The notes beneath the pieces were generated by a model that made no database searches, was not told the origin of the DNA, and saw only the letters and a program-made list of their open reading frames with translations. Of a DNA stretch of 64,000 nt, positions 41,769 to 63,762 are shown piece after piece; the stretch's first letter is position 1; each line of letters opens with the position of its first letter. The DNA is from a virus: positions 31,555-95,554 of IMG/VR virus record IMGVR_UViG_3300005573_000072. One strand, given 5' to 3'. Position numbers and translations under genes: made by a program.

Positions 41769-42680
41769 ATGTTAGCACTAGAGATGAGGCCCTCTTCGTT
41801 GGAAGAGCTGGTCGGACAGGAACCCATAAAAAAGATTTTGGCTAAGGCAGTTGAAGAAAGGAAAATTCCCCAAACAATGCTTTTTGCTGGCCCCCATGGC
41901 GTTGGCAAAACGTCTACGGCACGTATTATTGCCGACATCATAAATGCCGATTTGATTGAAATCGATGTCGCTTCTAACAGAGGTATTGAATCTGCCCATA
42001 AGCTTGTCGAACTAACTAATTTTGTCCCTCAGTCTGATAACGTTGTCATAATTTTGGATGAATGCCATATGATGACAAGAGAAGCTTTTAATGCTCTCCT
42101 TAAATTGCTTGAAGAGCCGCCCACTGGTTATTATTTTATTTTAGTTACAACTGATTCTACTAAGATGCCCAAAACCATATTGAGTAGATGTTACATTTTT
42201 CGCTTTCAGAAATTAGGAAAAGATTTGATAAATGCTGAATTAAAACGTGTTGTTGATAAATTAGGTAAAGGAGTTGATGACGATATCTTAAATATTATTG
42301 CTGAATCTTGTGATGGCTCTTTAAGAGATGCTTTTAACCTATTAGACCAAATATTATTATATGGTAATTCACTGGACATAAATGATATCCAACGATATTT
42401 TGGTATGGCTTCAAAAGAAGAAATAAAGAAATTATTCCATATTTTAAAGCATAAAGATGTAAATGAATTGATTGCTTATGTAGATAGGCTTCATGCTCAG
42501 GGCGTTAATGGGTTAAAGTTTTCTTATCAAATATTGGAAATTTTGGAAGGTAATCTTACTACAACAAAGCGTATTTACCTTTACAAAATGATATGTGATA
42601 ATATCCTAAAATATGAATATGCAACTGATGACAAGGTTTTTATGAAGAGATTATTCCTTGAGTTTATGGAGGTATACTGA
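41769..42680 (+). CDS. Clamp-loader AAA+ ATPase (DnaX gamma/tau-like, short, no C4 zinc module)
   Basis: RP..L.ELVGQ, GPHGVGKT, DECH, AFNALLKLLEEPP and SRC. Confidence 0.9.
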   Translation: MLALEMRPSSLEELVGQEPIKKILAKAVEERKIPQTMLFAGPHGVGKTSTARIIADIINADLIEIDVASNRGIESAHKLVELTNFVPQSDNVVIILDECHMMTREAFNALLKLLEEPPTGYYFILVTTDSTKMPKTILSRCYIFRFQKLGKDLINAELKRVVDKLGKGVDDDILNIIAESCDGSLRDAFNLLDQILLYGNSLDINDIQRYFGMASKEEIKKLFHILKHKDVNELIAYVDRLHAQGVNGLKFSYQILEILEGNLTTTKRIYLYKMICDNILKYEYATDDKVFMKRLFLEFMEVY

Positions 42681-44821
42681 TGGGAATGGATTTAAAGTGG
42701 CATGGATTATATTGGGAACCAACAGGCTATGGGACATTAACCCGTGAGTGCGTTGTTGCTCTCTATAAACTTGGTGCTAATTTGGCTTTGATGAATACTT
42801 CACCTTTGCTATCCCCTGTGTTTGAAATGCCAAAAATTTATTCACATGTTTATGTAGCTACGAAAGGAAGAAATGTTCCTCCTTATGCTCCTTGTGTTAC
42901 GTGCTGGACAGCAGAAAAAGCCTTGCTTTCTGTGAATGGGAAAAATATAATTTTTACTATGCTGGAATCAGATAGGATTCCTGATTTCTGGGTAAAGCGC
43001 TTGAATATGATGGATGAAATTTGGGTTCCGAGTCATTTTAATCTTAATACTTTTGTGGAAAGTGGTGTATATCGTGATTTAATTCATGTTGTTAATTTAG
43101 GTGTTAATAGGCAATTTTATCACCCAAATATTGAGCCTTCAATTTTTGATATTGATGAGCCTTATCTTTATCTTACAGTATTTGAATGGGCAACTAGAAA
43201 AAATGCAGATAATCTTATTAATGGTTTTATGGAGGTGTTTCATGATGTAGATGATGTTGTTTTGCTATTAATTGTTAATCCAGGAAGCTCTTATCAACGA
43301 AAAATATTTGAATTTATAAAGAATTTACGCAGAAAAACAAATAGTAATGCTAAAATTTATGTTACGTGGTCGGTATTTAATTATGATGAATTGGCCTCCT
43401 TGTATAAGAGAGCATATTGTTATATCAGTTTATCTCGTGGTGAAGGGTGGTGTTTACCTGCTAATGAGAGCATGGCCTGTGGTACGCCCGTTATTATCAC
43501 GGGTTGGTCTGCTCCTTTAGAATATGTTAATGAACAAAATTCTTTTATCGTTAGGGTCAATAATTTGATAGAAGCCAAAACTGGTGATCATTTCCAAATT
43601 TACTACGATAATTCTTATTGGGCCGATCCTGATATTAATCATTATAAAGAATTATTGTGGTTAACATATAAAAATCCTAATTTAGTAATGGAAAAAGGAA
43701 TGAGAGCTGCAAAAGATGTTGAGCATTTAACCTGGGATAATACAGCACAAACGATTATTGAACGTTTAAAATATTTAAACAAGGCTAATAATCAAAAGAA
43801 ACTTTTTATGGTAGAACAGGATATTGTTGAATCAAGGGTATTACATATTGTGCCTTCCTTAAAGGATAGAACTTGTACCTTACGAAATTATTTTTCGTGG
43901 CTTTTCGAAACGAATAAAATGGGGGATAAATCTAAAGCGATAAATATTGACGGGTTATCTTCTATTGATTTGGATGACTATAACATCGTGCATTTTTATT
44001 TTGCTTATGATTTTTTGAACAATGTTGAACTACGCAAATTATTTAGAAAACTAAATAACAAATTGGTTATTGTTGAGTTTCATTCTGTTAATGCGTTTGA
44101 GGTAATTACAAACAATTATCTTTGTCAGGTTGCAGACTGTATTGTAGTTCATTCGAAAGAGGAGCAAAATTTACTTTATCCATTTGCACAAGGTAAAATA
44201 GAAATTGTCCCTTTAGGTGTAAAAGTGTTGAATAATTTAGAACCTAAAAAGGAATTTAGAGATATTAAATATTTATCTATAGTAAAAGAATTAAATGAAA
44301 ATGAGGGTTTAATGTCTGTAGTAAGCAAAATACAATATTTGCCAAATTATGATTTCACCATATATGGTGTTTATAAAGATAAGAATTATATGTTTTACAA
44401 GGAGCTCCTTACATTAAGAGATGAGTTAAATATTTTGAATCTAAATTTAGATATTACAAACTATGATTATCCTGTATTAGTTGAAAAATTAAATAATTCC
44501 GATTTGATAATTTTTCCAAACGCAACCTCTGAATTTAATCCAAATGTATGTAAATTAATCCCATTATTATTAGCTTCCTATACTCCTATTATTGTTTGGA
44601 ACATAGAAGGTGAGTTATATGGATTTCCAAATAATCTTTTTATGATTGTTAATACTTTTGAGGATCTTATATCAGTCTTAGAAGATAAATTAAATCCATC
44701 TGAATATATTAGTTTGAGTAATTTAATGTATGAATATGTTCATACAAACTCTGTTTATGTTATAGCGGAAAAATATAAGCTTTTATACAAAAAACTGTTG
44801 GAAGGAGGTATGGGTAAATGA
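42680..44821 (+). CDS. Glycosyltransferase, GT4-like, with a second degenerate GT-B unit
   Basis: PTGYG, DEIWVPS and RGEGWCLPANESMACG. The C-terminal half repeats a GT-B-like layout. TGATG overlap with the clamp-loader gene. Confidence 0.88.
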   Translation: MGMDLKWHGLYWEPTGYGTLTRECVVALYKLGANLALMNTSPLLSPVFEMPKIYSHVYVATKGRNVPPYAPCVTCWTAEKALLSVNGKNIIFTMLESDRIPDFWVKRLNMMDEIWVPSHFNLNTFVESGVYRDLIHVVNLGVNRQFYHPNIEPSIFDIDEPYLYLTVFEWATRKNADNLINGFMEVFHDVDDVVLLLIVNPGSSYQRKIFEFIKNLRRKTNSNAKIYVTWSVFNYDELASLYKRAYCYISLSRGEGWCLPANESMACGTPVIITGWSAPLEYVNEQNSFIVRVNNLIEAKTGDHFQIYYDNSYWADPDINHYKELLWLTYKNPNLVMEKGMRAAKDVEHLTWDNTAQTIIERLKYLNKANNQKKLFMVEQDIVESRVLHIVPSLKDRTCTLRNYFSWLFETNKMGDKSKAINIDGLSSIDLDDYNIVHFYFAYDFLNNVELRKLFRKLNNKLVIVEFHSVNAFEVITNNYLCQVADCIVVHSKEEQNLLYPFAQGKIEIVPLGVKVLNNLEPKKEFRDIKYLSIVKELNENEGLMSVVSKIQYLPNYDFTIYGVYKDKNYMFYKELLTLRDELNILNLNLDITNYDYPVLVEKLNNSDLIIFPNATSEFNPNVCKLIPLLLASYTPIIVWNIEGELYGFPNNLFMIVNTFEDLISVLEDKLNPSEYISLSNLMYEYVHTNSVYVIAEKYKLLYKKLLEGGMGK

Positions 44822-45048
44822 AAAAATTATTGGGTGTTTTCTTATTAATATTAGCTATAATAGGGTTTATTTTATTATTTTCGTTTATAATTATGTTGTT
44901 GTGGAACAACAGCGTTACTAAGTTCATCACAGTATGCAAGACTATGAATTATTGGCAAGCTGTGTTATTCTATTTATTGGTAATATTGCTTACTGCAAAA
45001 GGAAGTATGAAAGGGGAATTAAGGAATGGCCAAGAGAAAAAAGAATGA
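44818..45048 (+). CDS. Small two-TM membrane protein
   Basis: 76 aa with two hydrophobic segments and a GGAGG RBS. Confidence 0.7.
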   Translation: MKKLLGVFLLILAIIGFILLFSFIIMLLWNNSVTKFITVCKTMNYWQAVLFYLLVILLTAKGSMKGELRNGQEKKE

Positions 45049-45217
45049 GGAATATATCAATGATTTGCTAACTATCATCGAGTCATTGACAAATCACATA
45101 AAACATCTCTATGATAGTGTGAATAATCTGTCGTTTTTACTTTTAGAAACTCAAAAGATGTTTGATCAGAAGATTAAAGCTTTGGAATCAAAAGTTAATG
45201 AAGGAGGTGAAAATTAA
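45026..45217 (+). CDS. Hypothetical coiled-coil protein
   Basis: 63 aa, tightly packed in the operon. Confidence 0.6.
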   Translation: MAKRKKNEEYINDLLTIIESLTNHIKHLYDSVNNLSFLLLETQKMFDQKIKALESKVNEGGEN

Positions 45218-45844
45218 TTGGAGCTATTCCCTGAAGAAGCCCATAAAGTATCTTTTCCTGCTTATAGAAGTAGGCTTTCGGATTTGTTTCCTAAAATTAA
45301 GCATGTTGTTTATGAATCTAACACATGGGGTACATTTTTTACTAAAGCATTAGAAAGATTGGATTGGAGTGATTATAAAGCTCTTATTAGAGAATTATTG
45401 AAAAGTGATGACCAAACCTTGGTTCTAGTAGTTCTTGATTTTATTCAATTACCTGCGCCAATAGGTATTGAATATAATGATGTATGGTATAAACTTTTTG
45501 TAGAGTATAAAACTGAAGTTGATAAGTTGAATAAGAAGTTAAAGGAATTTTCAGATAGATATCAAAAAGAATATGAAGAGAATTGCCGACAATTTAAGCA
45601 GGAATATTTCAGTATTTTAAAAAAGAATAATGAATTGTTTGAACAAGGCTTACTATCTAATGACGAATATATTTCACGAAATGACAAAGCACATATGATA
45701 TTTGTAACTTTGTGCACAGAAGAATATCAGAAAATGACTAATAAATTGGGGGTAATTGAGCGAGATATTATCGAACAGAAATATACTTTGTGGGCACGGA
45801 TTAGAGATGAATTAAGGGAATGGCTTCTAACTAATTTACTATGA
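45218..45844 (+). CDS. Hypothetical helical protein
   Basis: 208 aa, TTG start after AAGGAGG. Confidence 0.7.
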   Translation: MELFPEEAHKVSFPAYRSRLSDLFPKIKHVVYESNTWGTFFTKALERLDWSDYKALIRELLKSDDQTLVLVVLDFIQLPAPIGIEYNDVWYKLFVEYKTEVDKLNKKLKEFSDRYQKEYEENCRQFKQEYFSILKKNNELFEQGLLSNDEYISRNDKAHMIFVTLCTEEYQKMTNKLGVIERDIIEQKYTLWARIRDELREWLLTNLL

Positions 45845-46185
45845 GATTGGCTAATTATTGCCCGCATTGCAAGAAAAGAAGGTTTCTTTCTGAGGAAGGA
45901 TTAGGAAAAGCACATTATCCGCCACCGAGATTGTGGAAGAAGGTATGGCTCAATACATTAGGTTATTATCCTTTTGGAAAATATTATTATGCTTTTTGTG
46001 ATTTATGCAATAGGAAATTGGCTGTTTTTGACCAACACATTTTTAAACAAATGAAAGGCAAGCCTATTGTGTTTTACCGTTGTACTCTTACTGATCGTCC
46101 TTACAATAAGGATTATTGTGTTAATTTTCCAAAGTGTAGAAAATGCCCGGCGTTGAAGAAGGAGAATATCTATGGAAGACGATGA
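45841..46185 (+). CDS. Cys-rich (zinc-binding?) hypothetical protein
   Basis: 114 aa with CPHC, CDLC and CRKC. Confidence 0.65.
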   Translation: MRLANYCPHCKKRRFLSEEGLGKAHYPPPRLWKKVWLNTLGYYPFGKYYYAFCDLCNRKLAVFDQHIFKQMKGKPIVFYRCTLTDRPYNKDYCVNFPKCRKCPALKKENIYGRR

Positions 46186-46669
46186 GGTTATCTTAAGATT
46201 AATTGAAGATTTAAAACCGTATATTAACTCATTAATATACAAATTTAGGTATTATACATGTTTGGATGATGAAGATTTGATGCAAGAAGGTTATTATAAA
46301 ATTGTGTATGCCTATAGAAAAATAAAAAGTAGAAACGTCGATTTTGAATATATTGTAAATTATATCAAAAAAGCTATTGTTAATCATTTTATAAATATAG
46401 TTAAGGCAAACCCTATAAAGATTGGTAATGAGAAAAATGTAAGTTTTCTTGAAGGTTTTGAGTATTTTCTTAACGAAGAGGATAATAATATTGACGATTT
46501 TTATTCCATTTATAACTCTTTGGATGAAAAACAAAAAATACTTTTTACGCTTGTTGGTGAGGGCTATAGACAAAATGAAATAGCTAAAATATTGGATTAT
46601 AAATCACAAGGTACCGTGAGCAAAAATATTAAAAAATTACGTGAAGCAATGAGAGGTGAAAATGAGTAA
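46172..46669 (+). CDS. Phage RNA polymerase sigma factor (sigma70 regions 2 and 4)
   Basis: Region 2 'DDEDLMQEG' and region 4 HTH 'GYRQNEIAKILDYKSQGTVSK'. Confidence 0.88.
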   Translation: MEDDEVILRLIEDLKPYINSLIYKFRYYTCLDDEDLMQEGYYKIVYAYRKIKSRNVDFEYIVNYIKKAIVNHFINIVKANPIKIGNEKNVSFLEGFEYFLNEEDNNIDDFYSIYNSLDEKQKILFTLVGEGYRQNEIAKILDYKSQGTVSKNIKKLREAMRGENE

Positions 46670-47075
46670 GAATAGCCAATTTAGCAAGCATATCGAACAA
46701 TTAAGACGAGATTTATTAAAGCGCTGGGAAGCAATTCCGGATAATGCTAAAGATTTGTTCAAAACAAAATTCGAAGAAGAATTAAATTTGTCAAATTACT
46801 CTATTCCGTGGTTGGATGGGTTTGAGGAAGGACTTTTGGTTAGCCTTCTGTTTAGTGTGAATGTCAATAAATCAGTTAAATATTTCATTTTTCAATCTAA
46901 TGAATTTGCTAGGTTAGCTATTTTAATGTGTTATATTGAGGATATAGTGGCTAAAAAATTAAATGCTTTATATAATTGGAACGATTCTAATGAAAGTGAA
47001 GAAAAGAAAGAAGAAAATAAAAATGTAAATGGGGATAAAGGAGATGATGATAATGGAAGCTCTGGAGGAGAATGA
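46656..47075 (+). CDS. Hypothetical protein
   Basis: 139 aa, overlapping its neighbours. Confidence 0.65.
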   Translation: MKMSKNSQFSKHIEQLRRDLLKRWEAIPDNAKDLFKTKFEEELNLSNYSIPWLDGFEEGLLVSLLFSVNVNKSVKYFIFQSNEFARLAILMCYIEDIVAKKLNALYNWNDSNESEEKKEENKNVNGDKGDDDNGSSGGE

Positions 47076-47760
47076 TTTTAACATTCCGTTTGCGTATTTA
47101 ATGGACTATGATGTGGCTAAAAATGCTGAACGTTATATAGAATTACCGTTTGTTATCAAACAAATAAAGTTATTCAAAGCTCAAAAAGGTTATAAACCTC
47201 GCATACTAGACATTGGTTGTTGTGAGAATAGGATGTTACTTTATTCTGCTGAAGTTTTAGATGTTGATGCATGGGGTATAGATTTAAGGCCTTATGATAA
47301 AGATTCATATGAGAAATTTATTCAATGTGATGCTCGTGATATTCCTTTTGAGGATAATTCTTTTGATATTACTTATTCTATAAGTACTATAGAACATATT
47401 GGTTTAATCCATGAACGATATGATGCATGGGAATTTGATGAAGAGGGTGATTTTAAGGTTGTTAAGGAAGCCATCAGAGTAACAAAACCTGGTGGTTGGA
47501 TTCTTCTTACTTTTCCTATAGGAGAAGGAGATTCCGAATGGTATGGTTATTCCAATTGGATAAGATTTTATGATCAAAAAAGACTAAATAGGCTTTTTGA
47601 AATTTTTGAAGAAAATAATTGTAATTACGAATATCAGGCATATGTGATAAAAGATGGATGTTGGAATCCATCATCTTTGGAAGAAGCACTCAAAGTCTAT
47701 TCACAAAATACAGACGTTATCCAAACAAATTTACATTTAAAGATAGAGAAGGTTAGCTAA
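47029..47760 (+). CDS. Class I SAM-dependent methyltransferase (not a DNA MTase; DUF268/Methyltransf_11-like)
   Basis: ILDIG, GIDLR, 'PFEDNSFD..YSISTIEHIG' and 'R.TKPGG'. Confidence 0.85.
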   Translation: MGIKEMMIMEALEENDFNIPFAYLMDYDVAKNAERYIELPFVIKQIKLFKAQKGYKPRILDIGCCENRMLLYSAEVLDVDAWGIDLRPYDKDSYEKFIQCDARDIPFEDNSFDITYSISTIEHIGLIHERYDAWEFDEEGDFKVVKEAIRVTKPGGWILLTFPIGEGDSEWYGYSNWIRFYDQKRLNRLFEIFEENNCNYEYQAYVIKDGCWNPSSLEEALKVYSQNTDVIQTNLHLKIEKVS

Positions 47761-47854
47761 CCTCTTTCTCTTATAATATAGCTATCTTTATCTGGTGGGC
47801 TATAATAAAATATCTTAGAGATATTGATTCGTCCACAAAGAGATTAAAGACATT

Positions 47855-50800
47855 TTAGGAAGCCGCCTCTTCAAATCTCATGGTGCCGAATATCATATTG
47901 CTAAGGCGTTTGCCCATCCTCTCGATTAAGCCAACAACTAGAGAGTTTCCCAGACAAAAGTATCTCCCCGACAACGTCATCCCTGTATCGGTCCATCCAT
48001 CCGGGAAGCCGAAAATCCGTTCGACTTCGACCGGTGTCAATCGCCTTAACCTATCTGTTTGCGGATCCTTGATGATGTGGGTACATCTATTGGGTGAACG
48101 ACTACCTTCGCTGGTCAATATTGTCCTTGCAGGTTTGCTAAGGTCATCTGGGAATGGTATCGCTCCCTCTTTATAATAATATTCGTACCCAGACTTGGTA
48201 CGTCGCGGTTCCGATTTTGCACCCTTCGCATATCTCCATGCGCTGATGCTACTTTCGGGAATATAGAAGTCTTCCGACACATCTTCTTCAAGAACCGCTG
48301 AGAGTGGAGTAAACGGCTCTTTGATAGGCTCAACATGTATTGTATAGAATCTTCCGCCCGACATGATACCGGCATTTTGAAAAGGATATCTGAACCCATC
48401 TGACAACTCCATCAAGCTACCTTCTAAAGGATATGAGATATCAATCCCCGTTATTGGCAAGAGATTTGACGAACACGTTGCTGGGAACTCACTTGCGAAA
48501 AACCCCTTTTCTAGAAGCCAGGCATGCCAGTCAGTCGTGTTCTTAAGGCTTTCACCAATAGGAGTGTCATCTCGAAAAGCAAAAATGAACAGCCTTCTCC
48601 TACGTTGTGCAAATCCGTAGTCCGCAGCATTGATTACCCGCCATTCAACCGAATAGCCCAAGTCGTTTTCTGCTAGAAGGTCGCGGAAACAGGCTAGCAT
48701 GATACCGAAATCCCTGCCTCTTTGTGAAGCGGGTGATTTTAAAAGACGGTCTACGTTCTCAAGTAGAACATACGGTGGTCTTTTTGCTCTTAGGATGCGG
48801 TTGATTTCCCACCATAAGACGCCCTTCTTGCCATGTATGCCCTTCGTCTTAGTCGCAGCAACCGAGTAATCTTGGCATGGGAATCCCCCGACCAAAAGGT
48901 CATGCTCTGGTATGTCGTCTACATGGACCTTGCAAATATCTTCATTAGAGTGGCCCTCTGCTCCGAAATGTGCCACATAGCATTCAGATGCGTTCTGTCT
49001 CTTGGTAGCGGGTTCCCATTGGTTGGACCAAATAACCCTATGGCCTGCTTTCTCAAGACCTAACCTAAAGCCTCCGATACCTGCGAATAACTCGCATACC
49101 AACAAGCCTTCTGGGCTAGTTCTGATGACTTTGCCTTTCTGCGCCTTGTTCGACTTCTCCCACGCTTCGAGGACAAGGCGGCGAGTGCGGTAGAAACCGT
49201 ATTTTTTGATTTCTTTTTCCTTGAGAATGCGGAAAGTCTCGCCGGGGAAGGTGGAGGTCTCGCAGCGGTGGCGATAGGCCTCCTCGTCCAGGGGGTCCTC
49301 TACCTCCTCGTAGTCGTCGAGGATGTTCTCCAGCTCCTTCTCGGTGAGGTCGGCGGGGTCGAGGATGTAGCGGAGCTGCTTGCGGTTGAGGCCGTAAAGC
49401 TTGGCGTAAATGGCGTCAAGCTCTGCGCGCAGGCGGGCGCGTCGCTCCTCGTCCCACTTGAAGGGAGGCAGGGGGATGCCGTCCTCGGCGACCTCGGCCC
49501 ACTCGGGAGGATCCCAGGCATGTCCTCCCGTGGCCCGTTTGTTCTCCTCCCATTGGGCTCGGATGGCCTTCCGGAGATCCTCATCAGCCTCGCGCCACAC
49601 GTCATCGGCGAAAGGCTTGATGTCCCAGGAAGTGTATAAAATTTCGAGCGCTTTCGGCAATAAAAGAACTGTTTGAGATTTTTCATATTTATCATGAGAA
49701 ATAACAGGCAATTGATTTAAGTAATGGTAAGTCAAATGAGTCCCTCCCATCTTTTGTCTTGCAGCATAATCAAAAGCTAGGCAATCAAAGTTCCCAATAA
49801 AAAGAGGTGATAATAATTGCGAAATTTTTTTCATAAATATTAATGGCATTGTATGTCCGACGGCGGTTTGGGGGATAACGGTGAAGATGGCGGTGCGCTC
49901 ATTGGTGGCATTTGTAATATCCCGGAATCCGAGGAGCCAGCCTTTATCGTAGTTGCCGAGCCTGGCGTTTACCTCGGTCTTCGATACCCAATACCAGGGA
50001 AGGGATAGGAAGGAAGGGTTTGCATATTGGTCTGGTGTTGGAGTGGGGATGTGGGTGCTGGAGCGGGAGTTTACTCCTTCGTAGGTTCCGAAGCGGTGGT
50101 CGAATTGCCAAATCATCTTCGCTTCGTATAGCGGGAGCCAGATCTCCTGGTCGTCACCTTCGCCCTTGACGAAGCGGTTGCCGTGGAGGCGGAAGCCGGC
50201 TTTCTCGAGCTCCCGGCGGGTGCGGAAGAGGTGGGAGTCGTTGGACATGTCAAACATGCGTAAAAACCTTATGCCCCAGGGGTTTTCGCCGGTGGCCTCG
50301 TTCACCAGCACCGGCACCCTCCGGTAGATGTACCTGGTGAGCTCGGCATCCTGGCGGGTACGGAAAACGGGGCAGGTGCGGGTGTTGGGGTTGAGGAGGA
50401 AGAAATCCTCCGCGGTGAGCTCGAAAACCCGCCTCCCGTCCCGGAGCTGGGAGGCGCGGGTGAGGAAGAAGGCGAAGCGCGCCGGCTTACCAGCTTCGGC
50501 ACCGTCGCCCTTGAGAGTGAGGAGGGAGAATTTCTGCCTGCTATCAACCGCCGGAAAGATCTTATCCCGGTTCTCGAAATCGTAGAGGCTGGCCAGGCGG
50601 CCCGTATTCACCAGGTGGGAGAAGAACACCTTGTTGGTGTCGTCGGTGGCGATGCCGGTGGGCACCACCACGCCCGCCCTGCCCTCCGGGTTGATCAACC
50701 CGCTGAAGAGCTCGGAGAAGACGGAGTAGGTGTTGATGTCCCCGCGGGCGGACAGCGGGAAACGCCCCGACTGGCGCAGGAATTTGCTATGCGACTCGGC

Positions 50801-53226
50801 GTAATGCAGGGCACCCTGGTACTCGGACCACAGGGAGGGGTTGGTCTGCGGCAGTCGTTTTATCAGGCGTTCGCGGGCGGCCTTGTTGGGCGCCAGGGCG
50901 ATCTCCGAATCCCGGGTGGCGAAGAACTCTTTCTCCTGCAGCTTTATGCGCTCCCACGGGGGATTGCAGAGCACCACGTCGAAGCCCCCCTTCTCGAAGA
51001 CCTCGGGGAACTCCAGGGGCCAGTGGAAGAAACGGTGGCGCAGCGCCGCCTCCCAGGCGTGGCTTGGATATCGAGGATCAACGGATGCCGGATTGTCTAA
51101 ATAATTGCGCAGGACCTCGGTGGTGGGGATAGCCTTCTCCCGGTAGCCATCCTTATCCAGCCTGGCGAAGAAGGCGGACGTCCAGAGGTGGCAGGCGGTG
51201 TTGTCGTTCCACCAGCGCCCTCCCTCGCCCCGCAGCCTCTCGTAGGCCTCCTGCTTTTTCCGCACCTGTTCCGGAGTGTCGTCGGGGATCTCGGAGAGCT
51301 TTCGGTAGGCCTCGGATAGCTCGTGGGCGTCGCTTTCAACATCCAGCGCAAAGGAAAGCCAACCGGCCCTCTCGGTCCTCTCCGCCTTGTTGTCTTTCTT
51401 TATGGACTTGGCGAGGGCCTTATCATCGTCCGCCACGGGCTCGAAGGCCCCATCGGGTATGCCCTCCTCGAGGACCTTGAGGTCGAAGACGCCCACCAGG
51501 GAGTCGCCGCAGCGGATGCGGTGGTCGAGGAAGGTGAGGGGACGCCCCTCGGCGTGGCCCTCTATCCACAGGGCCACCTTGCAGAGGTCCACGGCCAGGG
51601 GGTTCTTGTCCACCCCGTAGATGCAGTGGCCGATGACGTCGCGCACGGCGGAGCGTACCTCCTCGGGGGCGGGCTCCTCGTCGCCGGTGCGCACGCGGGC
51701 CAGCTCCTTTCCCAGGCGGCGGGCGGCGGCCAGGAGGAAATGGCCGCTCCCGCAGGCGGGGTCGCAGACCTTGATGTCCAGGATGGCCCTCTCCTTTTCC
51801 ACCTTTCCCCTCGCCCTGGCAAGCCTCTCCGCGAGCACGGGCTCGAGGGCGCTCTTCACCAGCTCGTTGACCAGCTCGGGCGGGGTGTAGTAGGAGCCGG
51901 TGGTCTTGCGCTCCGTGCCCGGCACCAGACGGAAGACGGTCCTCCCCTCCTGCTCGAGGAAGGCGGGGTGGTAATCGAGCAGGCTCTCGTAAACGCTCCC
52001 CAGCTCCTCCACGTCCAGGGCGGAGTAGTTGACGCGGCGGCGGGGGGAGCGGGCGTCCTCGGTGTAGGTGGAGAGCTCGCGCAAGGCAGCCAGGAGGTCC
52101 CGGTTGTAGAGGGCGCGGCGGTCCAGCTCCGTCTCCTCGAAGAGCTCCCCGTTGAGCGGGGGGACCTGGAGAAGGGCCCCCAGTTCCTGGCGGCGGAAGA
52201 GGTCGAAGGTGACCTGCAGGGATATCCAGAGGTCCCGGTGGTCCTCGTCGCGCAGGCGCAGGTCGGCCAGGCGGCGCAGGCGCTCCAGGCTGTAGTGCTC
52301 CAGGTAAACGGCGGACGGCGAGATGAGCCTCCTCTCCTCGGCCACCATGAGGAAGAGCAGGCGGTAGACGAGGCGTAAAAGGTCCCGGTAGAAGGACTCC
52401 GGCCCGGTCTCGCCCGTTTCCACCCGCTCGCGCAGCCTGTCGTTGACGGGGTGGGAGAGAAAACCATTACCAAATATTTCCAAAACCTTCTCCACCCCGT
52501 CGCGCAGCCGTTCGCGCACCCTTCCCCCCTGCTCCACACTCTCCATGTAGTAGCTCTCCAAGAGGCAGGAGGGGGCGTCGTCCATGCCGCGGGGAAGCCG
52601 GGTGCGGTGGACCAGGCGCCAGAAAAGGGCGAAGTCGGAGAGCCTCTCCCCCTCGAACATGGACTCCAGGTCGAACTCGATATAGGCCTGGCGGGAGAGG
52701 AGCTGGCTGTCGCGCAGCAGGCGCAGGATGCGGCCGTTGGTGACCACGCCCCAGAGGTGCTCGGTGCGGTTGAGGTATTCCTGCACCAGAACGTGGGGCG
52801 CCAGGCGGGGGCGACCGGATGGCGGGAGCTTGCCCAGGTCCTGTCGCCAACCCACCACGTGGACCGGCGGCGCGTCCGCGTCCCGGTCGGCGCCGTGGCT
52901 CACGGCGAAGGTGAGCCCGTCCACCTCCTGGGCCCGGGGCCGGTAGGTCAGCTCGTAGCCCAGGAGGCTCATCAGGGGTATCACCCACTGGTCGCGGGTG
53001 GGCCCGGTGGCCAGGTCGTCGGGGGACAGGCGCTCCAGGCGGGCCCGGAAGGCCTCCCAGAAGCGGCGGGCGGCGCCCCAGGCCTCGGAGACCTCGTCTA
53101 TGAAGGCGGCCCTGGGCGGAAGGCCGAAATCGGCCGGCTTCTGCCCCGGCGCCTCGCCGTCGGCGATGCGGTCGATGAGATCCGGGCTGAGGAGCCCGCC
53201 CTCCACGCGAAAGCTCTCGAAGCGAC

Positions 53227-53230
<4 letters not shown>
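47855..53230 (-). CDS. Fusion: DrmMI/Eco57I-like amino-MTase with TRD, plus a C-terminal Sau3AI-like C5-cytosine MTase
   Basis: The N-terminal part has GSYYTP, DPACGSGHFL and NPPW, ending at RTRRLVLEAW. The last ~420 aa have ELFAGIGG, NQWEP, GGFPCQDYSVA, ENVDRLLKSP, QRRRR, GFPD and GNSLVV. The frame is single and uninterrupted. Confidence 0.9.
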
Positions 53231-56063
<2,833 letters not shown>

Positions 56064-56067
<4 letters not shown>

Positions 56068-59000
56068 GGTCTCGCCTCCCCGAAAACGTCAGGATATCTG
56101 GATATCTGCTCCTCCAGGTCACGGTCATAACGGATGACGATGACTCGATACCCAAGATCTTCCAGCTCCTGCCGCACCTTCATGTCCTTCTCCCTCTGGG
56201 CGGGCTCGTCGTGCACGGAGCCGTCGCAGAAGACGCAGGTGTACTTCTCGTAAAAGAAATCGGGGACGGTGCCGTGGTGGTCGGCCAGCGCCCGCTGGGC
56301 GTCGTCGGGAAGGCGGCGCCCGGTGGCATAGAGGTGGTCGAGGAACCTTCTCTCCAGTTCGGAACGGGAATCGGCGAGGGCGCGCAGCCATTGATAATGT
56401 TCGTGGTAATCCCGGCCCCCGACCTTGGGATGCGTCTCGGAGCTGGCGATCTCCGCGAGAAGATCCCTGGCCAGCGCGCGGTCGAGCAGGGAATAGTCGC
56501 GCTGGTTGGTGTAGGAGAGCAGGCAATCGTAGCAGGCGCGCAGGCATTCCGCTTTGAGGTCTTCCAGGCTGTCCGGTTGGTAATGGCACGCCACCAGGGC
56601 CTCGCGGGCCACGCCGGCCAAGGCGTCCCTCTCCACGGCGAGGGCGCGCAGGATCCCGTAGCCGCCCTCGCTGGCCTCGTAGAAGAGGATGCCCCGGCGG
56701 CCGCTTTGTCCGATGCGCTCCGAGGCGAGCTCGGAGGGTTCCAGCTGGTAGACCCTCTCGATGCCGCGGCGCAGGGCGTGTTCCAGGGTGGCCAGGGCCT
56801 CCTCGGTAAGCCCGAGGCCGTCGCGGCCGGGGTAGAGGAGCATGACGTTCATGGTGTCGCGCACGAAGAGGCGCACCGTCTCCACCCGGGCGGTGGCGGC
56901 CCTCTTAACATCCCGATCGCTCCTGGAAAGGAACTCCCCCGTATCCATGTTCAGGAGATAGCCCGACTCCCTGCTGTTCCTCCACCGATGGTTCACGCGG
57001 TACAGGGTGGCCGACGGCGCGTAAACGAGCTCCAGGAGCGGCTTGCCTCCCTTGTCGGTCACCACGGCCGGGACGCGCCCCTCGCTCGACCCGCTGGAGG
57101 GGGAGAACTCGAAGTGGGTGGTTATGTCGTAACCGTAACGCACCCTTTCCTCTTCCTCGCTGGTGATGCGCTCCCTGCGGCGGGTATAGACGTTCGTGGC
57201 CTCGAGCAGAGTGGCGTAGGTGTAACCATCGCCGGAGAGGCGGCTCTCGCAGTTGTGGCATATGTCCACGCTCTCGTCGGAGTGGAGGTATCCGCAGTTG
57301 CCGCAGATCTTCACTTGGAGGAGCCTCTTTTCCAGGTCGGAAAGGACGGTCTTGAGGCTGGTCACCCTGTACTTGGAACCCTCGTGGTAGATGAGGTTCT
57401 CGGGGCCGAACTCGGAGATGGCCAGGAAGCGGGGCCGCGACACGTAATCGCCTTCCCCTTTCCGCGGGATGAAGGCGGTAAGGGGCAGGCGGGGGAAGTT
57501 ATAGCCGGGAAGGAAAGCCTCGCTGGCCAGGTAGCGGTAGGGGTAGAAGTCCGATTCCTCGTAGAACCGGGTGCTGTTCTCCAGTAGCTGCTTCTGGCGT
57601 TCCGCCTCGTCGCGCCTTCTCCTGGCCTCCTCCCTCTCTTTGTTGTTCCCGGTTGGATAGCGAAGGATCTCGTTGGCCTCCACCCACTGGCGATCCGCGG
57701 CGCGGTAGAGCTCCCGGAAGCGTTCGAAGGCCCGGTTGAACTCCTCCGGGGCCCGCCTGAGCGCCTCTTCCAACCACTCCTCGGAATACCACGCCGGTGC
57801 CTCGCCCTCCGGATAGCAGGAATCGAATATGCGCCGGGCCTCCTCCAGGCATTCCCGGAAAGCCCTCTCGCCGAGCCTCACCTTGTTCGCCGCGTCCTCG
57901 TTCAGGGGGTAGTCCTCCAGGCGTACGTCGACGAACTCGGTTATGGAACGGCCCAGGGAAAGCCCGGTCCTGGCCAGCCAAATGGAGTGAAGGTGGGCCC
58001 GGGCCAGTTCCTCGCTGGAGAGGTCGATGCGCGGGGGCTGCACGGAACCGGAGACCATCTCCCGTTTATGATGGAAGAAGTACTGGTCGTGGCCGCTTCC
58101 GGCCAGGCAGTAGGTGATGACCAGGGCGGGGTCGCCCTTGCGTCCGGCGCGGCCGCTGCGCTGGGCGTAGTTGGCTGGAGTGGGCGGGACGTTGCGCAGG
58201 TGCACCAGCTGCAGGTCGGCGATGTCGATGCCCAGTTCCATGGTGGGCGAGCAGAAGAGGCATTTGAGCTCGCCGTCCCGGAAACGGAGCTCCCTCTCCT
58301 GCCTCCGCTCGTAATCGACCTGGGCGGTGTGCTCCCGCCCCTCCGCAAGGCGCAGCAAGCCGGGCGGCCGGGTGTAGAAGCTGACGAAATAGCGGTTGGC
58401 CTCCTTTTCCACCTTTTGGTAAATGGGGTCGTCGGAGCGCCTCCGGTAAAGGGGTTCCCCGGCCGGCGTCCCGTCACCCGGCCCCCAGACCAGGCAAGAT
58501 GATTCCACCTGGACGTAGGAGACGCCCCTTTCGCTGCCGCGGCGCAATAGGCCGTGGGCGCAGAGGATGTCCGTGAGCCTTTGCATGTTCTCGGAGTATT
58601 CCGGCAAGAAGGAAGGAAGGACCCGCTTCAGGTAGCGGTACACCAGGCTCCTCTCGGCCAGGCTGTAGCTGTTGGGAATCTTTTCCTCCTGCCCAGGAAG
58701 GACGAAACGCGAGGCGGTGAACAGGCGTCCCTCCTCGCCGAAACTCCACTTCTCGTCTATGCATTCCTCCACGCGCTTCCTCAATTGCTGTTGGTTGGTC
58801 TCCTGCAGCCAGTAGGCGTGGACGGCCAGCTGCCTGCGGAAGTGGTCCAGCAGGGCGGTGAGGATCTCCCGCCGCCCGGCGGCGTCGAGGTCCGCGAAGG
58901 GTTTGAGCTCTCGCCAGGCCTCCCCGTCGGCGCACAGCTCCTCGAGCCCCAGGTATCCGAACCGCAGAAGGCCGCACTGTTCCAGGTTGGGCTGCACGAA

Positions 59001-61142
59001 CCGCCAACCCCGGCGCATGTCCTCGTAAACGCGGTACTCGACGAGGTCGGTGAAGACCTTCATAACCTCGCCTCCCCTGGGGGTGTCGGGAAGGAGATCC
59101 TTGCTGGCGGAGATCTCCCGGAAGGGAAGCTCCAGGGCCTCTACCACCTTGGTCGCCACCTGGTCGTGGCGCAGGGGGCCAGCTTCACTCACCGCCCGGT
59201 ATATGGCGGCCCGGAGGAGCCCAGTGCGGACGAAGTCGTTGAAATGACCGGCCTGCAGGCTGGCGTCCTGCCGGTTGTCGGTGAAGCTGAGGACCTTGCG
59301 GGCTCCCTCCTCGATGTCGCCCATGGGCGCCTTCTCCAGCGCCGAGAGGGCCAGGACGGTGGTGGCGCTGCTCCGCCCCTCGCTGGAGAGGCCGGCGAGC
59401 TTGCTGAACTCGCTGTCCTTGCCGGTGTAGAAGACCCCGCAGTTCAAGCAGAGGCGGAAGGGGTAGGGCTGGAACCAGGCCTTGACGGCGTCATCGACAA
59501 GGTATTGGGAATAATTACCATCTGGATAGACCCACGCGGGCCGTGGCACATATTCCCGGTAATCCCTCTTGACCTTTCCGTTGTCCTGGAGCCATTCCCT
59601 GGGAAGATTTTCCGGTCCCCACTCCACGTCGCGTCCCTGCGGAGGTATGAGAAGGTATCCCCGTTCCTTGGTCTCGCCGTATCCGTCGAGAAGCTCGGAC
59701 TCGTCGCCCAAGGGCTCGAAACGGCTGGCTTGAGAGTCGTGCGCCACCTCGTAGTACTCCATACCGCAGACCCGGCAGAACTTGAGGGAAAAGAGGGGGA
59801 GCGTTTTCCCTTCCCTGCTGGCGTAGGCGTGCCCTTCCATGTCCAGGAGGCGCTGGGAAGGATGCTCCAGGGTGGCGAAAACACGGTTCCCCTGGGCTAT
59901 GAACTGGTGCAGCTTGAAAGAGAGCAGGGGTTCACCCTCCGCGTTCCGAAGGGACGCTCCCTTCAAGAAAACCCGGCTCAAGGCCTCCTTGCAGGCCTCC
60001 TCGTCCAGCCCCGTAAGGTCCGAGAGCCTCGAAGCGCCCTCCTCCAGGCTGAGCGGGGGGCGGCGCCTGAACCGCCCTTCTTCCTCCTCCTCGAGGCCGA
60101 AGTTGTCCTCCACCCATGAGACCAGGGGGTGGCGCAGGAAGGCTTCCGGATCGTCGGGCAACGGGGAGCCCACGGCCTCCTTCAGCCTTTGGCCATCGAC
60201 GTCTCCGGCGCCGGAGGTCAGGCGCTCCAGGCTTTCCTCGACCACTTGATCGGGCTGGAACGGGGCGCCGAACATCTTCTGCGCGAATTCGGCCACCACC
60301 CGGCGCCTCTCCCGGCGCGAGGAATCCCTTCCGGCGATCATGGTGGCGCTGGTGCCTATGCACATGAGATGCGGGTTACCGCACCTTTCCTTGAGGCGGC
60401 GGATGAGGAGGGCCACGTCCGCGCCCTGGCGCCCCCGATAGGTGTGGAGCTCGTCTATGACCAGGTACTTGACGCCGGCCGTGGTGCGATCCACGAAAAC
60501 GTGCTCTTCGGGGCGGACCAGCATCAGCTCCAGCATGACGTAGTTGGTGAGGAGTATGTGGGGTGGCTCCTTCTGGATAGCCGGACGCTCGTTGAGGTTC
60601 TGGCCGGTATAGCGGTTAAAACGGACCGGGAACTGGCGGCCGGTCCTTTCTTGATACGCTTTCGCCAGCTCCTGCAGGGCTAAAAATTGCGAGTTCACCA
60701 GGGCGTTCATGGGGTAGATGATGATGGCCCATACCTTGTGCGCCTGGGGATCGCCCCTGAGCACGGCGTCGATTATGGGCACGAAGTAGGTGAGGCTCTT
60801 TCCGGAGCCCGTTCCGCTGGTGACCACGAAACCCCTTCCCGAGAGGGCCGTCTCGATGGCCTCCTGCTGGTGCTGGAAAAGGGTTATGGATCTGCCGTCC
60901 CGGTCGCGGAAGATCTCCGCGCATTCGGGATGCAGCTTCCCCTCGGCCACCAAATCCTCTATACTCGCCGCCTTTCTGTAGGCGGGATTGAGCTGGACGA
61001 GGGCCGGCGGCCACAGGACGCCTTTGTCCACCAATTCCCGGGAGACGAAATCACGGATCCTGTCGTCCTGGATGGTGAGGAAACTGTGTATATATTCCTT
61101 ATATTCCTCGATTACGGCGTCCTTCAGTTGGAAGATGCTCAT
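56064..61142 (-). CDS. DEAD/DEAH SF2 helicase with DUF1998 and a C-terminal Vsr/DUF559-like nuclease
   Basis: GTGSGKS, DELH, SAT, MELGIDI and QRSGRAGR. DUF1998 motif C..ACYDCLLSY.NQ. C-terminal PDF...DGSVHD...GYRVI. Confidence 0.9.
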
Positions 61143-63269: not shown

Positions 63270-63762
63270 TGCGGAATTCCTTTCCTTTATTTTCCAGGTA
63301 TATTCGCGGACCTCACCCTTCCCCACCAACCGGCGGTGGGGGGTCCTCCGCCCGTTCCTTCCCTGTCTCGCCCCTAGTTTTTTACCTGTCTCCTAACCCC
63401 ACGGTCGTTGGGCCATCGTTTTTGTCATTCGCACGCTTTTTTGCCCTCTCCCCTCCCGTACCCCGCGATGGTCGCAGAATCGACCTTTCTCCCTCACCCC
63501 ACTGCCGTTGACTGTCGGGTTCCGGTATTCGCAAATCACCTTCACCTATTTTCCTTCAGCGATGAAGCTTTTCTTCACACTCGCACGCTGTTTCTGGTCT
63601 CTCCTTCCACACGCCCCGCCAAGGCCGCCGAATCAAACTTGCCCCCTTTCTTCTAAACCATTGATTCCCGCGTTTCGGCAACCGCGGTTCATCCTCGCAC
63701 ACCTAGTCGCCATATACACGATAGACATATGCCTCGTTTACCAGGATCTACCGGAAAAGAAC

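What the first reader, a model, noticed from the sequence alone, without database searches (positions are those of the whole stretch)
47855..53230. Single polypeptide combining an N6-adenine-type MTase and a full Sau3AI-like 5mC MTase in a DISARM-like defence operon
Seen: one 1791-aa frame carries complete amino-MTase motifs (DPACGSG, NPPW). After the expected end of that module (RTRRLVLEAW) comes a ~17-aa linker and then a full set of C5-MTase motifs. The C5 part (about 47855-49130) is visibly lower in GC, which suggests a recent graft. Known: DISARM class I uses an adenine MTase (DrmMI) with an SNF2 helicase (DrmD), and class II uses a C5 MTase (DrmMII). The NQWEP, ENVDRLLKSP and RGRDF signatures match my recollection of M.Sau3AI (GATC). 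Inference: this is a dual-chemistry self-marking enzyme that could give a helicase-nuclease system two recognition marks, a class I/II hybrid I do not recognise as described. No cognate Sau3AI/MutH endonuclease follows it.
Basis: partly seen in the sequence, partly recalled or inferred. Interest (0 to 1): 0.8.

Follow-up and report, generated by a model that had tools for sequence, protein, structure and literature searches.

The report
Phage methylase fused to stolen defence methylase
The 1791-residue double methylase is really written in this hot-spring contig and its fusion joint is real, but the contig most likely stitches a low-GC phage to a high-GC bacterium inside that gene, so the enzyme is probably a phage counter-defence methylase, not part of the neighbouring bacterial defence operon.

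Summary
The open frame 47855-53230(-) exists. It carries intact N6-adenine motifs (DPACGSG, NPPW) and a full C5 motif set, and the GC drop is real. The context changes the reading. The record is a 95.5-kb IMG/VR virus contig: about 79 kb of 33-35% GC phage, the 47% GC C5 module, then 15 kb of 64-69% GC DNA running to the contig end.

That 15 kb is an ARMADA type I defence operon (YprA-like helicase-nuclease, SNF2, PglX-like methylase), described in 2025 and conserved in many phyla without any C5 methylase. Logan contigs of two hot-spring runs carry phage, C5 and 200-400 nt of the N6 gene at phage depth (23.5 and 53), then stop. Pieces identical to the rest of the N6 gene and the operon have about a third of that depth, whatever their GC. 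Two other runs hold the operon without phage or C5.

No other such fusion turned up in proteins, metagenomes, viral contigs or genomes. So the joint is real and the operon linkage is probably an assembly crossover.

Best model (inferred): the phage carries a host-derived, possibly 5'-truncated, ArmB-like methylase fused to its own Sau3AI-family Dcm, as a protective self-methylating device. Interest is moderate.

The parts
47855..49105 (-). C5 cytosine methylase module (residues 1376-1791), Sau3AI-associated family, 47% GC. It is physically continuous with phage DNA.
   Evidence: Pfam PF00145 E 1e-59 and PADLOC MTase_II 504 bits. Nearest relatives are free-standing proteins of 410-450 aa, best 84% identity. 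Logan contigs run unbroken from phage genes through it.
49106..49162 (-). Fusion joint (WEKSNKAQKGKVIRTSPEG). The last ~4 codons and stop of the N6 gene, and the start codon of the C5 gene, are missing.
   Evidence: Alignments with L018/P0005 tails and the P0122 leader. Nucleotide homology to L018 ends at 49145. Identical in contigs of runs X1 and X2.
49145..49558 (-). Conserved 3' block of the ArmB/PglX-like N6 methylase gene, carried on the phage-depth contigs.
   Evidence: The X1 contig (7925 nt, depth 23.5) ends at 49357. The X2 contig (15648 nt, depth 53) ends at 49558.
49559..50050 (-). Low-GC (45%) variable patch of the N6 methylase, a candidate target-recognition region and strain-variable. 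The probable assembly crossover lies at its 3' edge.
   Evidence: 62-72% identity to L018 here against 90-98% on either side. Several strain variants diverge at 49636 (table 7). The piece identical to the window has depth 8.28 in X1.
50051..53230 (-). Catalytic and N-terminal parts of the ArmB/PglX-like N6-adenine methylase, bacterial version.
   Evidence: 94% identical over 1357 aa to the free-standing P0002 of 1375 aa. Pieces identical to the window have depth 6-10 in X1, except one short piece at 51575-51919 (depth 21) that lies where strains share sequence. Summed depth is 8.7-10.3 at 52421-53623.
53227..56067 (-). ArmA-like SNF2/RapA-type helicase.
   Evidence: Pfam SNF2-rel_dom + Helicase_C; PADLOC DpdE 684 bits, DrmD 300 bits; NCBIfam DrmD 325 bits, below its cut-off of 610.
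56064..61142 (-). ArmC-like YprA-family helicase with a DUF1998/MZB zinc domain and a weak C-terminal Vsr-type (DUF559) match.
   Evidence: Pfam DEAD, Helicase_C, MZB, DUF559 (E 0.005); PADLOC DruE 318 bits. The exact protein also occurs on an ENA contig. A relative at 90% or more is in an Actinomycetota MAG on a 108,660-nt contig.
61245..63329 (-). NERD nuclease + UvrD-like helicase upstream of the operon, an accessory gene not conserved with the trio.
   Evidence: Pfam NERD, UvrD_C; PADLOC RTasNERD-Hel 247 bits. Absent from all 80 genome loci.
41769..47760 (+). Phage flank (clamp loader, glycosyltransferase, sigma-like gene, SAM methyltransferase), convergent on the C5 gene.
   Evidence: Pfam/PHROGs hits. 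Collinear with the related phage G001.

Best explanation
The window's 1791-aa frame is a hybrid of two populations that share a near-identical stretch of one gene. Shown: a 33-35% GC hot-spring phage carries a Sau3AI-family C5 methylase gene. Its 5' end is joined in frame, end to end, to the 3' end of an ArmB/PglX-like N6-adenine methylase gene, for at least 136 codons. Shown: the rest of the frame and the three genes upstream (YprA-like helicase-nuclease, SNF2 helicase, N6 methylase) form an ARMADA type I defence operon, with a NERD-UvrD gene beside it. This operon belongs to a co-resident high-GC bacterium, most like an Actinomycetota MAG, present at about a third of the phage's depth. Inferred: the assembler crossed from phage to bacterium inside the shared methylase sequence, at about 49560-49600. 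Inferred: the phage's real gene is a host-derived ArmB module, perhaps 5'-truncated at residue 246 as in contig L018, fused to its own Dcm. Such an enzyme would put the host's ARMADA-type m6A mark and a GATC-type m5C mark on phage DNA. The phage would then pass as self to ARMADA and resist GATC-cutting restriction enzymes, a 'Trojan horse' methylase.
For: Composition and layout: 0.35 GC for 1-47760, 0.47 for C5, 0.61-0.69 beyond, and the high-GC block ends the contig. G000 is an IMG/VR virus record with TerL, clamp loader and sigma-like genes. It is collinear over 7.5-78 kb with a 122-kb relative that CheckV% complete and that has no match to the fusion protein. So the phage genome is incomplete and the contig leaves it at this gene. 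Reads: the X1 contig of depth 23.5 covers 44000-49357 and the X2 contig of depth 53 covers 44000-49558, and both stop inside the conserved 3' block. All but one of the listed pieces identical to the window from 49600 to 55872 have depth 6-10 in X1 and about 16 in X2. This holds in the 42% GC patch as well as in 70% GC DNA, so GC bias does not explain the drop. Runs X3 and X4 hold the operon from 49176 upward with no phage and no C5. Uniqueness: none of the 120 best long proteins carries both PF07669 and PF00145. P0001 is seen on one contig only, and its 90% cluster mates are 1375 and 1368 aa. No fusion was found in IMG/VR, JGI metagenomes or 80 genome loci. C5 methylases of this family are common on viral contigs. 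The joint is end to end. Second joint: contig L018 joins low-GC DNA to this methylase at residue 246 (window 52491). That low-GC DNA holds a phosphoesterase 49% identical to one at 12.5-13.2 kb of G001, about 2 kb from G001's sigma-like gene. 29 of 31 variant letters in X1/X2 contigs equal L018's letters, and those contigs end at 52492.
Against: Only Logan contigs could be laid, not raw reads, so no read pair or long read shows which N6 variant continues from 49558. Depth is one figure per contig. The depth ratio of high-GC block to phage is similar in both runs (about 0.37 and 0.30). That is also what a fixed subpopulation of phages carrying the operon would give. One short piece identical to the window (X1, 51575-51919) has depth 21, close to the phage's; several strains share sequence there, so it does not decide. 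The L018-like variant has 60-110% of phage depth, not exactly phage depth. At 49269 and 49327 the phage-depth contig does not carry L018's letters. The orientation of L018's phosphoesterase relative to G001 does not fit the simplest map. L018's methylase is only mildly AT-shifted (GC3 0.77 against 0.87) and matches its own downstream island, so long residence in a phage is not shown. No complete truncated-ArmB-Dcm protein was found in any database.
Confidence: 0.55

Rival explanations
1. The phage carries only a dead 3' remnant of the host N6 methylase gene, captured next to its C5 methylase. This would resemble the truncated vsr that another note reports beside the phage's other C5 methylase. 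The C5 enzyme is made alone from an internal start, and the long frame exists only in the chimeric contig.
For: The phage-depth contigs prove no more than 136 codons of N6 sequence. In-frame TTG-TTG codons lie 5-6 residues before motif I, where free-standing homologues start (MNLSVCELF, MDLIVCELF), with GAAGG 1-4 nt upstream. No full truncated-ArmB-Dcm protein is in the databases.
Against: The joint is end to end (native tail of one gene to native leader of the other). That is expected from two whole adjacent genes losing a stop, not from a random capture break. No sigma-70-like or phage late-promoter motif precedes the C5 module, and the GAAGG spacing is short. Summed depth near phage depth persists in bins up to about 52,000, and an L018-type 5' joint is present in the same runs.
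Confidence: 0.2
2. The contig is correct. This phage, or a sizeable subpopulation of it, carries a complete ARMADA type I operon recently taken from its host. The operon's methylase has become fused to a C5 methylase and gives two self-marks to a phage-borne defence system.
For: The IMG assembly joins them. The frame is open throughout. The ratio of operon depth to phage depth is similar in X1 and X2. The ARMADA paper reports ARMADA on phage-satellite-like mobile elements.
Against: Depth is about threefold lower across the operon, with no GC bias between the 42% and 70% GC pieces. Logan contigs break just inside the gene. The operon is present without the phage in X3 and X4, and in an Actinomycetota MAG on a 108-kb contig. 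GC differs by more than 30 points with no amelioration (N-terminal GC3 0.92). The block sits at the contig end. The related phage lacks it. C5 is never linked to this operon in 80 genomes.
Confidence: 0.1
3. The N6-C5 joint itself is an artefact: a misjoin common to short-read graphs at a shared word. The phage has a plain free-standing C5 methylase.
For: The fusion is unique among billions of proteins. Both halves have close free-standing relatives. The contig start is poly-G/poly-C junk, so the assembly contains artefacts.
Against: Two different runs, assembled by a different pipeline, cross the joint. Their sequence is identical to the window there, and 200-400 nt of N6 sequence lies beyond the joint, with no branch at 49145. 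There is no repeat or shared word at the joint.
Confidence: 0.07

Closest known systems
ARMADA type I defence system (ArmC YprA-like helicase-Vsr nuclease, ArmA SNF2/BrxHII-like helicase, ArmB PglX-like methylase); bioRxiv 10.1101/2025.09.15.676423
   Same: Same three proteins in the stated type I order, YprA homologue first, then SNF2, then methylase. [quoted passage not shown] The trio is conserved in 52-58 of 80 genome loci.
   Different: The paper never mentions a cytosine methylase (0 occurrences of 'cytosine'). An upstream NERD-UvrD gene replaces the RelE-GajB-like ArmD of type II. Only here does the ArmB frame run on into a C5 methylase, and that part is probably phage DNA.
DISARM class I (DrmA, DrmB, DrmC, DrmD, DrmMI) and class II (DrmMII)
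   Same: An SNF2 helicase related to DrmD, an N6 methylase related to DrmMI (PADLOC 282 bits), and a DUF1998 helicase.
   Different: Helicase and DUF1998 are one protein of the Druantia/ARMADA clade. There is no PLD DrmC. The SNF2 protein is below NCBIfam's DrmD cut-off (325 against 610 bits). The C5 module matches DrmMII only weakly.
Sau3AI-type (GATC, m5C) methylases
   Same: Same signature blocks (QWEP, ENVDRL.KSP..QRGRDFG). 43% identity to a relative fused to a MutH/Sau3AI nuclease domain.
   Different: No Sau3AI/MutH-like endonuclease is nearby. GATC specificity was not tested, and no sequence of M.Sau3AI itself was on hand.
Phage 'Trojan horse' methylases. The acquisition of protective methylation by phages is reviewed in PMC12707154, as are phage enzymes that array several target-recognition domains in one polypeptide. 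From my own knowledge, not checked here: lactococcal phage phi50 captured the LlaI methylase domain from pTR2030 (Hill et al. 1991), and phage P1 Dmt is described as an N6A-C5 two-domain methylase.
   Same: A phage-borne methylase without a nuclease partner, built from host-derived modules, of a kind that could hide phage DNA from host defence.
   Different: Here the captured module would come from an ARMADA/BREX-like (PglX-type) system of about 1100-1360 aa, not a small type II enzyme. The function is inferred only.

Membership tests
ARMADA type I | YprA-family DExH helicase with DUF1998 | tested here: met
   Pfam DEAD 88 bits, Helicase_C, MZB (DUF1998) 39 bits; PADLOC DruE-type 318 bits.
ARMADA type I | C-terminal Vsr-type nuclease on the YprA homologue | tested here: inconclusive
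   DUF559 at residues 1628-1674, E 0.005, 17.1 bits, below the Pfam cut-off of 20.6.
ARMADA type I | BrxHII/RapA-like SNF2 helicase and PglX-like methylase, in the order YprA, SNF2, methylase | tested here: met
   Overlapping co-directional genes 56064-61142, 53227-56067, then the methylase. Pfam, PADLOC and NCBIfam hits to SNF2, RapA, Eco57I and BREX PglX. Order as stated in the paper.
ARMADA type I | BrxA-like helical insert after RecA1 of the YprA homologue | not tested
   No structure prediction was run.
DISARM class I | Separate DrmA helicase and DrmB (DUF1998), a PLD nuclease DrmC, and an SNF2 protein above the DrmD cut-off | tested here: not met
   Helicase and DUF1998 are fused. DrmA models score 49 bits or less against 318 for DruE. 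No PLD gene. DrmD scores 325 bits against a cut-off of 610.
DISARM class II methylase DrmMII | The C5 methylase is best described by DrmMII models and sits in a DrmABC context | tested here: not met
   DrmMII 125 bits against MTase_II 504 bits. No DrmABC genes.
Sau3AI-type C5 methylase (GATC) | All ten C5 motifs intact, and family signatures shared with enzymes linked to Sau3AI/MutH nucleases | tested here: met
   Motif positions. 43% identity to P0019, which carries PF00145 + PF02976.
Sau3AI-type C5 methylase (GATC) | Methylation of GATC at C5 | not testable with these tools
   Needs a methylome or methylation-sensitive digestion.
Single-chain N6A + C5 methylase as a natural protein | Both modules on one molecule along the full length of the frame | tested here: inconclusive
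   The joint plus 136 codons is bridged in two runs. Upstream of 49558 the depth drops and contigs break.

The most novel reading that the evidence does not exclude
Phages of this low-GC hot-spring family steal the methylase of their host's ARMADA system. They cut off its N-terminal domain and weld it to their own Dcm, producing one roughly 1550-aa enzyme that writes both the host's m6A self-mark and a GATC-type m5C mark on phage DNA. This would be the first counter-defence against ARMADA, and a natural test of whether ARMADA tells self from non-self by ArmB methylation.
Probability: 0.4. Interest if true: 0.65.

Novelty: new variant of a known kind. Interest (0 to 1): 0.4.

Why it matters
If the contig is taken at face value, it would add a false 'dual-chemistry DISARM hybrid' to the catalogue of defence systems. 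Showing that the operon is ordinary ARMADA type I and that the linkage is doubtful prevents that.

What remains is still useful. A real in-frame joint between a PglX/ArmB-type methylase and a phage Dcm suggests that phages capture the self-marking enzyme of BREX/DISARM/ARMADA-like systems. No inhibitor or escape route for ARMADA has been reported in the two papers read here, and how ARMADA recognises self is open. A phage-borne ArmB fragment would give a direct handle on both questions. The case also shows how genes shared between phage and host create chimeric 'viral' contigs in public collections.

Tried and rejected

Megablast of the region against plasmids and phages gave only a 72% Thermus plasmid match to the N6 gene, or nothing.

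IMG/VR scans found no other copy. I used the neighbouring phage methyltransferase protein and the exact 40-nt joint.

GC bias as the cause of the depth drop was rejected. X1 pieces identical to the window have depth 8.3-10 at 42% GC as well as at 70% GC, and X3/X4 depths are flat over 52-70% GC.

I first read the strong GC-to-AT asymmetry of L018 against the window (244:52 upstream of 50100) as amelioration inside a phage. I dropped this because L018's GC3 is still 0.77 and matches its own downstream 53-64% GC island.

The phage late-promoter motif noted by another reader (GGAATA-N17-GYA) and sigma-70-like sites were sought upstream of the C5 module, and none was found.

A prophage-in-host reading was rejected. 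The Logan contigs show no branch at the phage/C5 boundary (47,800), and the depths differ.

Tracing single variants through table 3 led nowhere firm. Only some rows are shown, and depth is given per contig.

The two-domain nature of P1 Dmt could not be confirmed in the held papers.


Full report
OBSERVATION. The frame 47855-53230(-) is open for 1791 codons from an ATG. Pfam places Eco57I/N6_Mtase/MmeI_Mtase matches at residues 439-768 and a full-length C5 DNA_methylase match at 1378-1777, E 1e-59. The N6 motifs are intact: DPACGSG at 490-496 and NPPW at 756-759. So are the C5 motifs: FAGIGG, GFPCQDYS, ENV, QRRRR and GNSLV. GC is 0.472 in the C5 part, 0.614 at 49106-49558, 0.447 in a patch at 49559-50050 and 0.661 in the rest of the gene.

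THE JOINT. The closest relative of the N6 part, P0002, is 94% identical over 1357 residues without a gap, and ends 18 residues after '...AW'. Its other 90% cluster mate is 1368 aa. The closest relatives of the C5 part are free-standing proteins of 410-450 aa, best 84% identity. The 'linker' is made of two pieces. EKSNK corresponds to the native tail of N6 homologues (EAWERLNERDWK* in L018). The rest corresponds to the N-terminal leader of the C5 homologue P0122. Nucleotide homology to L018 stops at 49145, about four codons before the native stop. So two whole genes are joined end to end, with loss of one stop and one start. The tails after 'EAW' differ among close homologues, so this point is a boundary where different downstream DNA is attached in different strains.

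CONTEXT. The whole record is a single 95,554-nt contig, an IMG/VR virus record.
- Bases 1-120 are poly-G/poly-C junk.
- About 79 kb is 33-35% GC and encodes a large terminase, clamp loader, glycosyltransferases, a sigma-like protein and very large virion-type ORFs.
- This part is collinear, from 7.5 to 78 kb, with a 122-kb IMG/VR relative that CheckV rates 79% complete and that has no match to the fusion protein. The phage genome in the window's contig is therefore incomplete, and the contig leaves phage sequence exactly at the methylase gene.
- The last 15 kb, up to the contig end, is 64-69% GC.

THE HIGH-GC BLOCK. It encodes four proteins:
- a NERD-UvrD helicase;
- a 1692-aa DEAD helicase with a DUF1998/MZB domain and a weak Vsr-type (DUF559) match;
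- an SNF2 helicase;
- the N6 methylase.

The last three, in this order, are what a 2025 preprint defines as ARMADA type I (YprA homologue, BrxHII-like helicase, PglX-like methylase). [quoted passage not shown] An mBio paper gives the same domain description for type II. It is not canonical DISARM: helicase and DUF1998 are fused, there is no PLD gene, and the SNF2 protein is below NCBIfam's DrmD cut-off.

In 80 genome loci holding relatives of the methylase, from many phyla, 58 have the SNF2 gene and 52 the YprA-like gene. None has a C5 methylase or the NERD gene within the locus, which takes in up to 10 kb on each side. The exact 1692-aa protein also occurs on an ENA contig, and a relative at 90% or more is in an Actinomycetota MAG on a 108,660-nt contig.

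IS THE FUSION SEEN ELSEWHERE? No.
- Among proteins of 985-3135 aa, none of the 120 best hits has both Eco57I and C5 domains.
- The exact protein is on one contig only.
- IMG/VR and JGI metagenome scans with a query spanning the joint returned matches to one half or the other only.
- C5 methylases of this family are frequent on viral contigs.

READ-LEVEL EVIDENCE. Two hot-spring runs of 2017 hold 87-89% of the sampled words of 46500-51500. Only Logan contigs could be laid.
- In X1 one contig of 7925 nt, depth 23.5, covers 44000-49357 and ends there.
- In X2 one contig of 15,648 nt, depth 53, covers 44000-49558 and ends there.
- Both cross the phage/C5 boundary and the C5/N6 joint without a branch, indel or stop. 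The joint is therefore real and belongs to the molecule that carries the phage genes.
- The X1 end at 49357 is where a variant with C at 49327 (depth 7.93) begins to share 31-mers. The X2 end at 49558 is the edge of the conserved 3' block, beyond which strains diverge.
- From 49600 onward, seven X1 pieces identical to the window are listed. Six have depth 6.3-10.1, including the 290-nt piece in the 42% GC patch (8.28) and pieces in 70% GC DNA. The seventh (51575-51919) has depth 21, in a stretch where summed depth shows that several strains share sequence.
- Summed depth at 52421-53623 is 8.7-10.3 in X1 and 17-21 in X2.
- Depth does not depend on GC among these pieces, and it is flat in X3 and X4 over 52-70% GC. 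So GC bias does not explain a threefold drop.
- X3 and X4 hold the operon at 94-99% identity from 49176 upward, with zero depth on the phage and the C5 module.

The simplest reading is two populations, phage and bacterium, that share a near-identical piece of the methylase gene. The assembler crossed between them at about 49560-49600.

A SECOND JOINT. The only metagenome contig matching the N6 half, L018 (Ga0078972_1007249), has 31% GC DNA joined to the same methylase at residue 246 (window 52491). A new start (MNIFQLTK...) is supplied by the low-GC side. A native stop follows, then 53-64% GC defence genes up to the contig end. Its low-GC part holds an endolysin-like amidase. It also holds a phosphoesterase 49% identical to a gene at 12.5-13.2 kb of phage G001, about 2 kb from G001's sigma-like gene. 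That is the slot where the window's phage carries the C5 gene. Of 31 variant letters reported for X1/X2 contigs, 29 equal L018's letters, and those contigs end at 52492, the L018 joint.

This suggests that the same runs contain a methylase copy truncated at residue 246 and attached to phage-family DNA. It also suggests that both public contigs are crossovers through the shared gene, one entered from each side.

The caveats are real. The L018-like variant has 60-110% of phage depth, not exactly phage depth. At 49269 and 49327 the phage-depth contig does not carry L018's letters. The phosphoesterase orientation does not fit the simplest map. L018's AT shift is modest (GC3 0.77 against 0.87, dN/dS 0.29) and matches its own downstream island.

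MECHANISM. Shown:
- the phage molecule encodes a complete Dcm-type methylase preceded in frame by at least 136 codons of ArmB-type sequence;
- the operon is bacterial ARMADA type I.

Inferred:
- the phage gene continues upstream as a host-derived ArmB module that keeps the catalytic and target-recognition parts;
- it methylates the ARMADA site (m6A) and a GATC-type site (m5C) on phage DNA, hiding the phage from ARMADA and from GATC-cutting restriction enzymes.

The GATC assignment rests on 43% identity and shared signatures with a relative fused to a MutH/Sau3AI nuclease domain. It was not tested. The acquisition of protective methylases by phages is a known strategy.

RIVALS.
- A dead remnant with the C5 enzyme started internally (0.2). 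In-frame TTG codons lie where homologues start, but there is no promoter and the ribosome-site spacing is poor.
- The contig is right and the phage carries the operon (0.1). This is contradicted by depth, contig breaks, operon-only runs, extreme unameliorated GC and the contig-end position.
- The joint is an artefact (0.07). This is contradicted by two independent runs.

VERDICT. The 'class I/II DISARM hybrid' is most likely an assembly crossover next to an already described ARMADA type I operon. The real novelty is smaller and still unproven: a phage Dcm fused to a captured ArmB-type methylase. No fusion of this kind was noted on other DNA.

Noticed in passing
L001:1-120 (start of the contig, 31.5 kb before the window): The contig begins with about 120 nt of poly-G/poly-C low-complexity sequence. 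This looks like a two-colour-chemistry sequencing artefact and marks an unreliable contig end. About 2.8 kb of 46-50% GC DNA with four ORFs of no known family follows.
   Followed up: partly
L018:1-17941 (Ga0078972_1007249): A second public contig joins 31% GC phage-family DNA to the same methylase family, here at residue 246 with a new start codon. It then runs into 53-64% GC Mrr_N/GmrSD/helicase genes up to its end. It is either another crossover or a phage-borne truncated methylase.
   Followed up: partly
window 49559-50050: A 45% GC patch inside the 61-66% GC methylase gene is shared by the 94% relative P0002 but only 62-72% identical to L018. Several strain variants switch sequence at 49636. 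It looks like a swapped target-recognition segment.
   Followed up: partly
window 49145-49176: The C-terminal tails after 'EAW' differ completely among methylases that are otherwise 76-94% identical (SGVGIKCK..., DKLVLEV..., ERLNERDWK). The X3 contig ends at 49176. The 3' end of armB seems to be a recombination boundary.
   Followed up: no
window 61245-61620: The NERD-UvrD protein ends in proline-rich repeats (PENPPENPPESPP) and four to five copies of DARTESQPAGQR/PQ. This low-complexity tail was not seen in the family models.
   Followed up: no
window 61073-61107: An AT-rich GGAATATAAGGAATATATACAC element sits at the 5' end of the YprA-like gene (start 61142), inside otherwise 64-69% GC DNA. 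It resembles the phage late-promoter half-site by chance or otherwise.
   Followed up: no
G001 (IMGVR_UViG_3300037067_008519), L178-L186: A 122-kb relative is collinear with the window's phage over about 94 kb and rated 79% complete. This implies a genome of roughly 150 kb at about 35% GC for this hot-spring phage family. The window's contig lacks the part matching G001 1-15 kb and 109-122 kb.
   Followed up: partly
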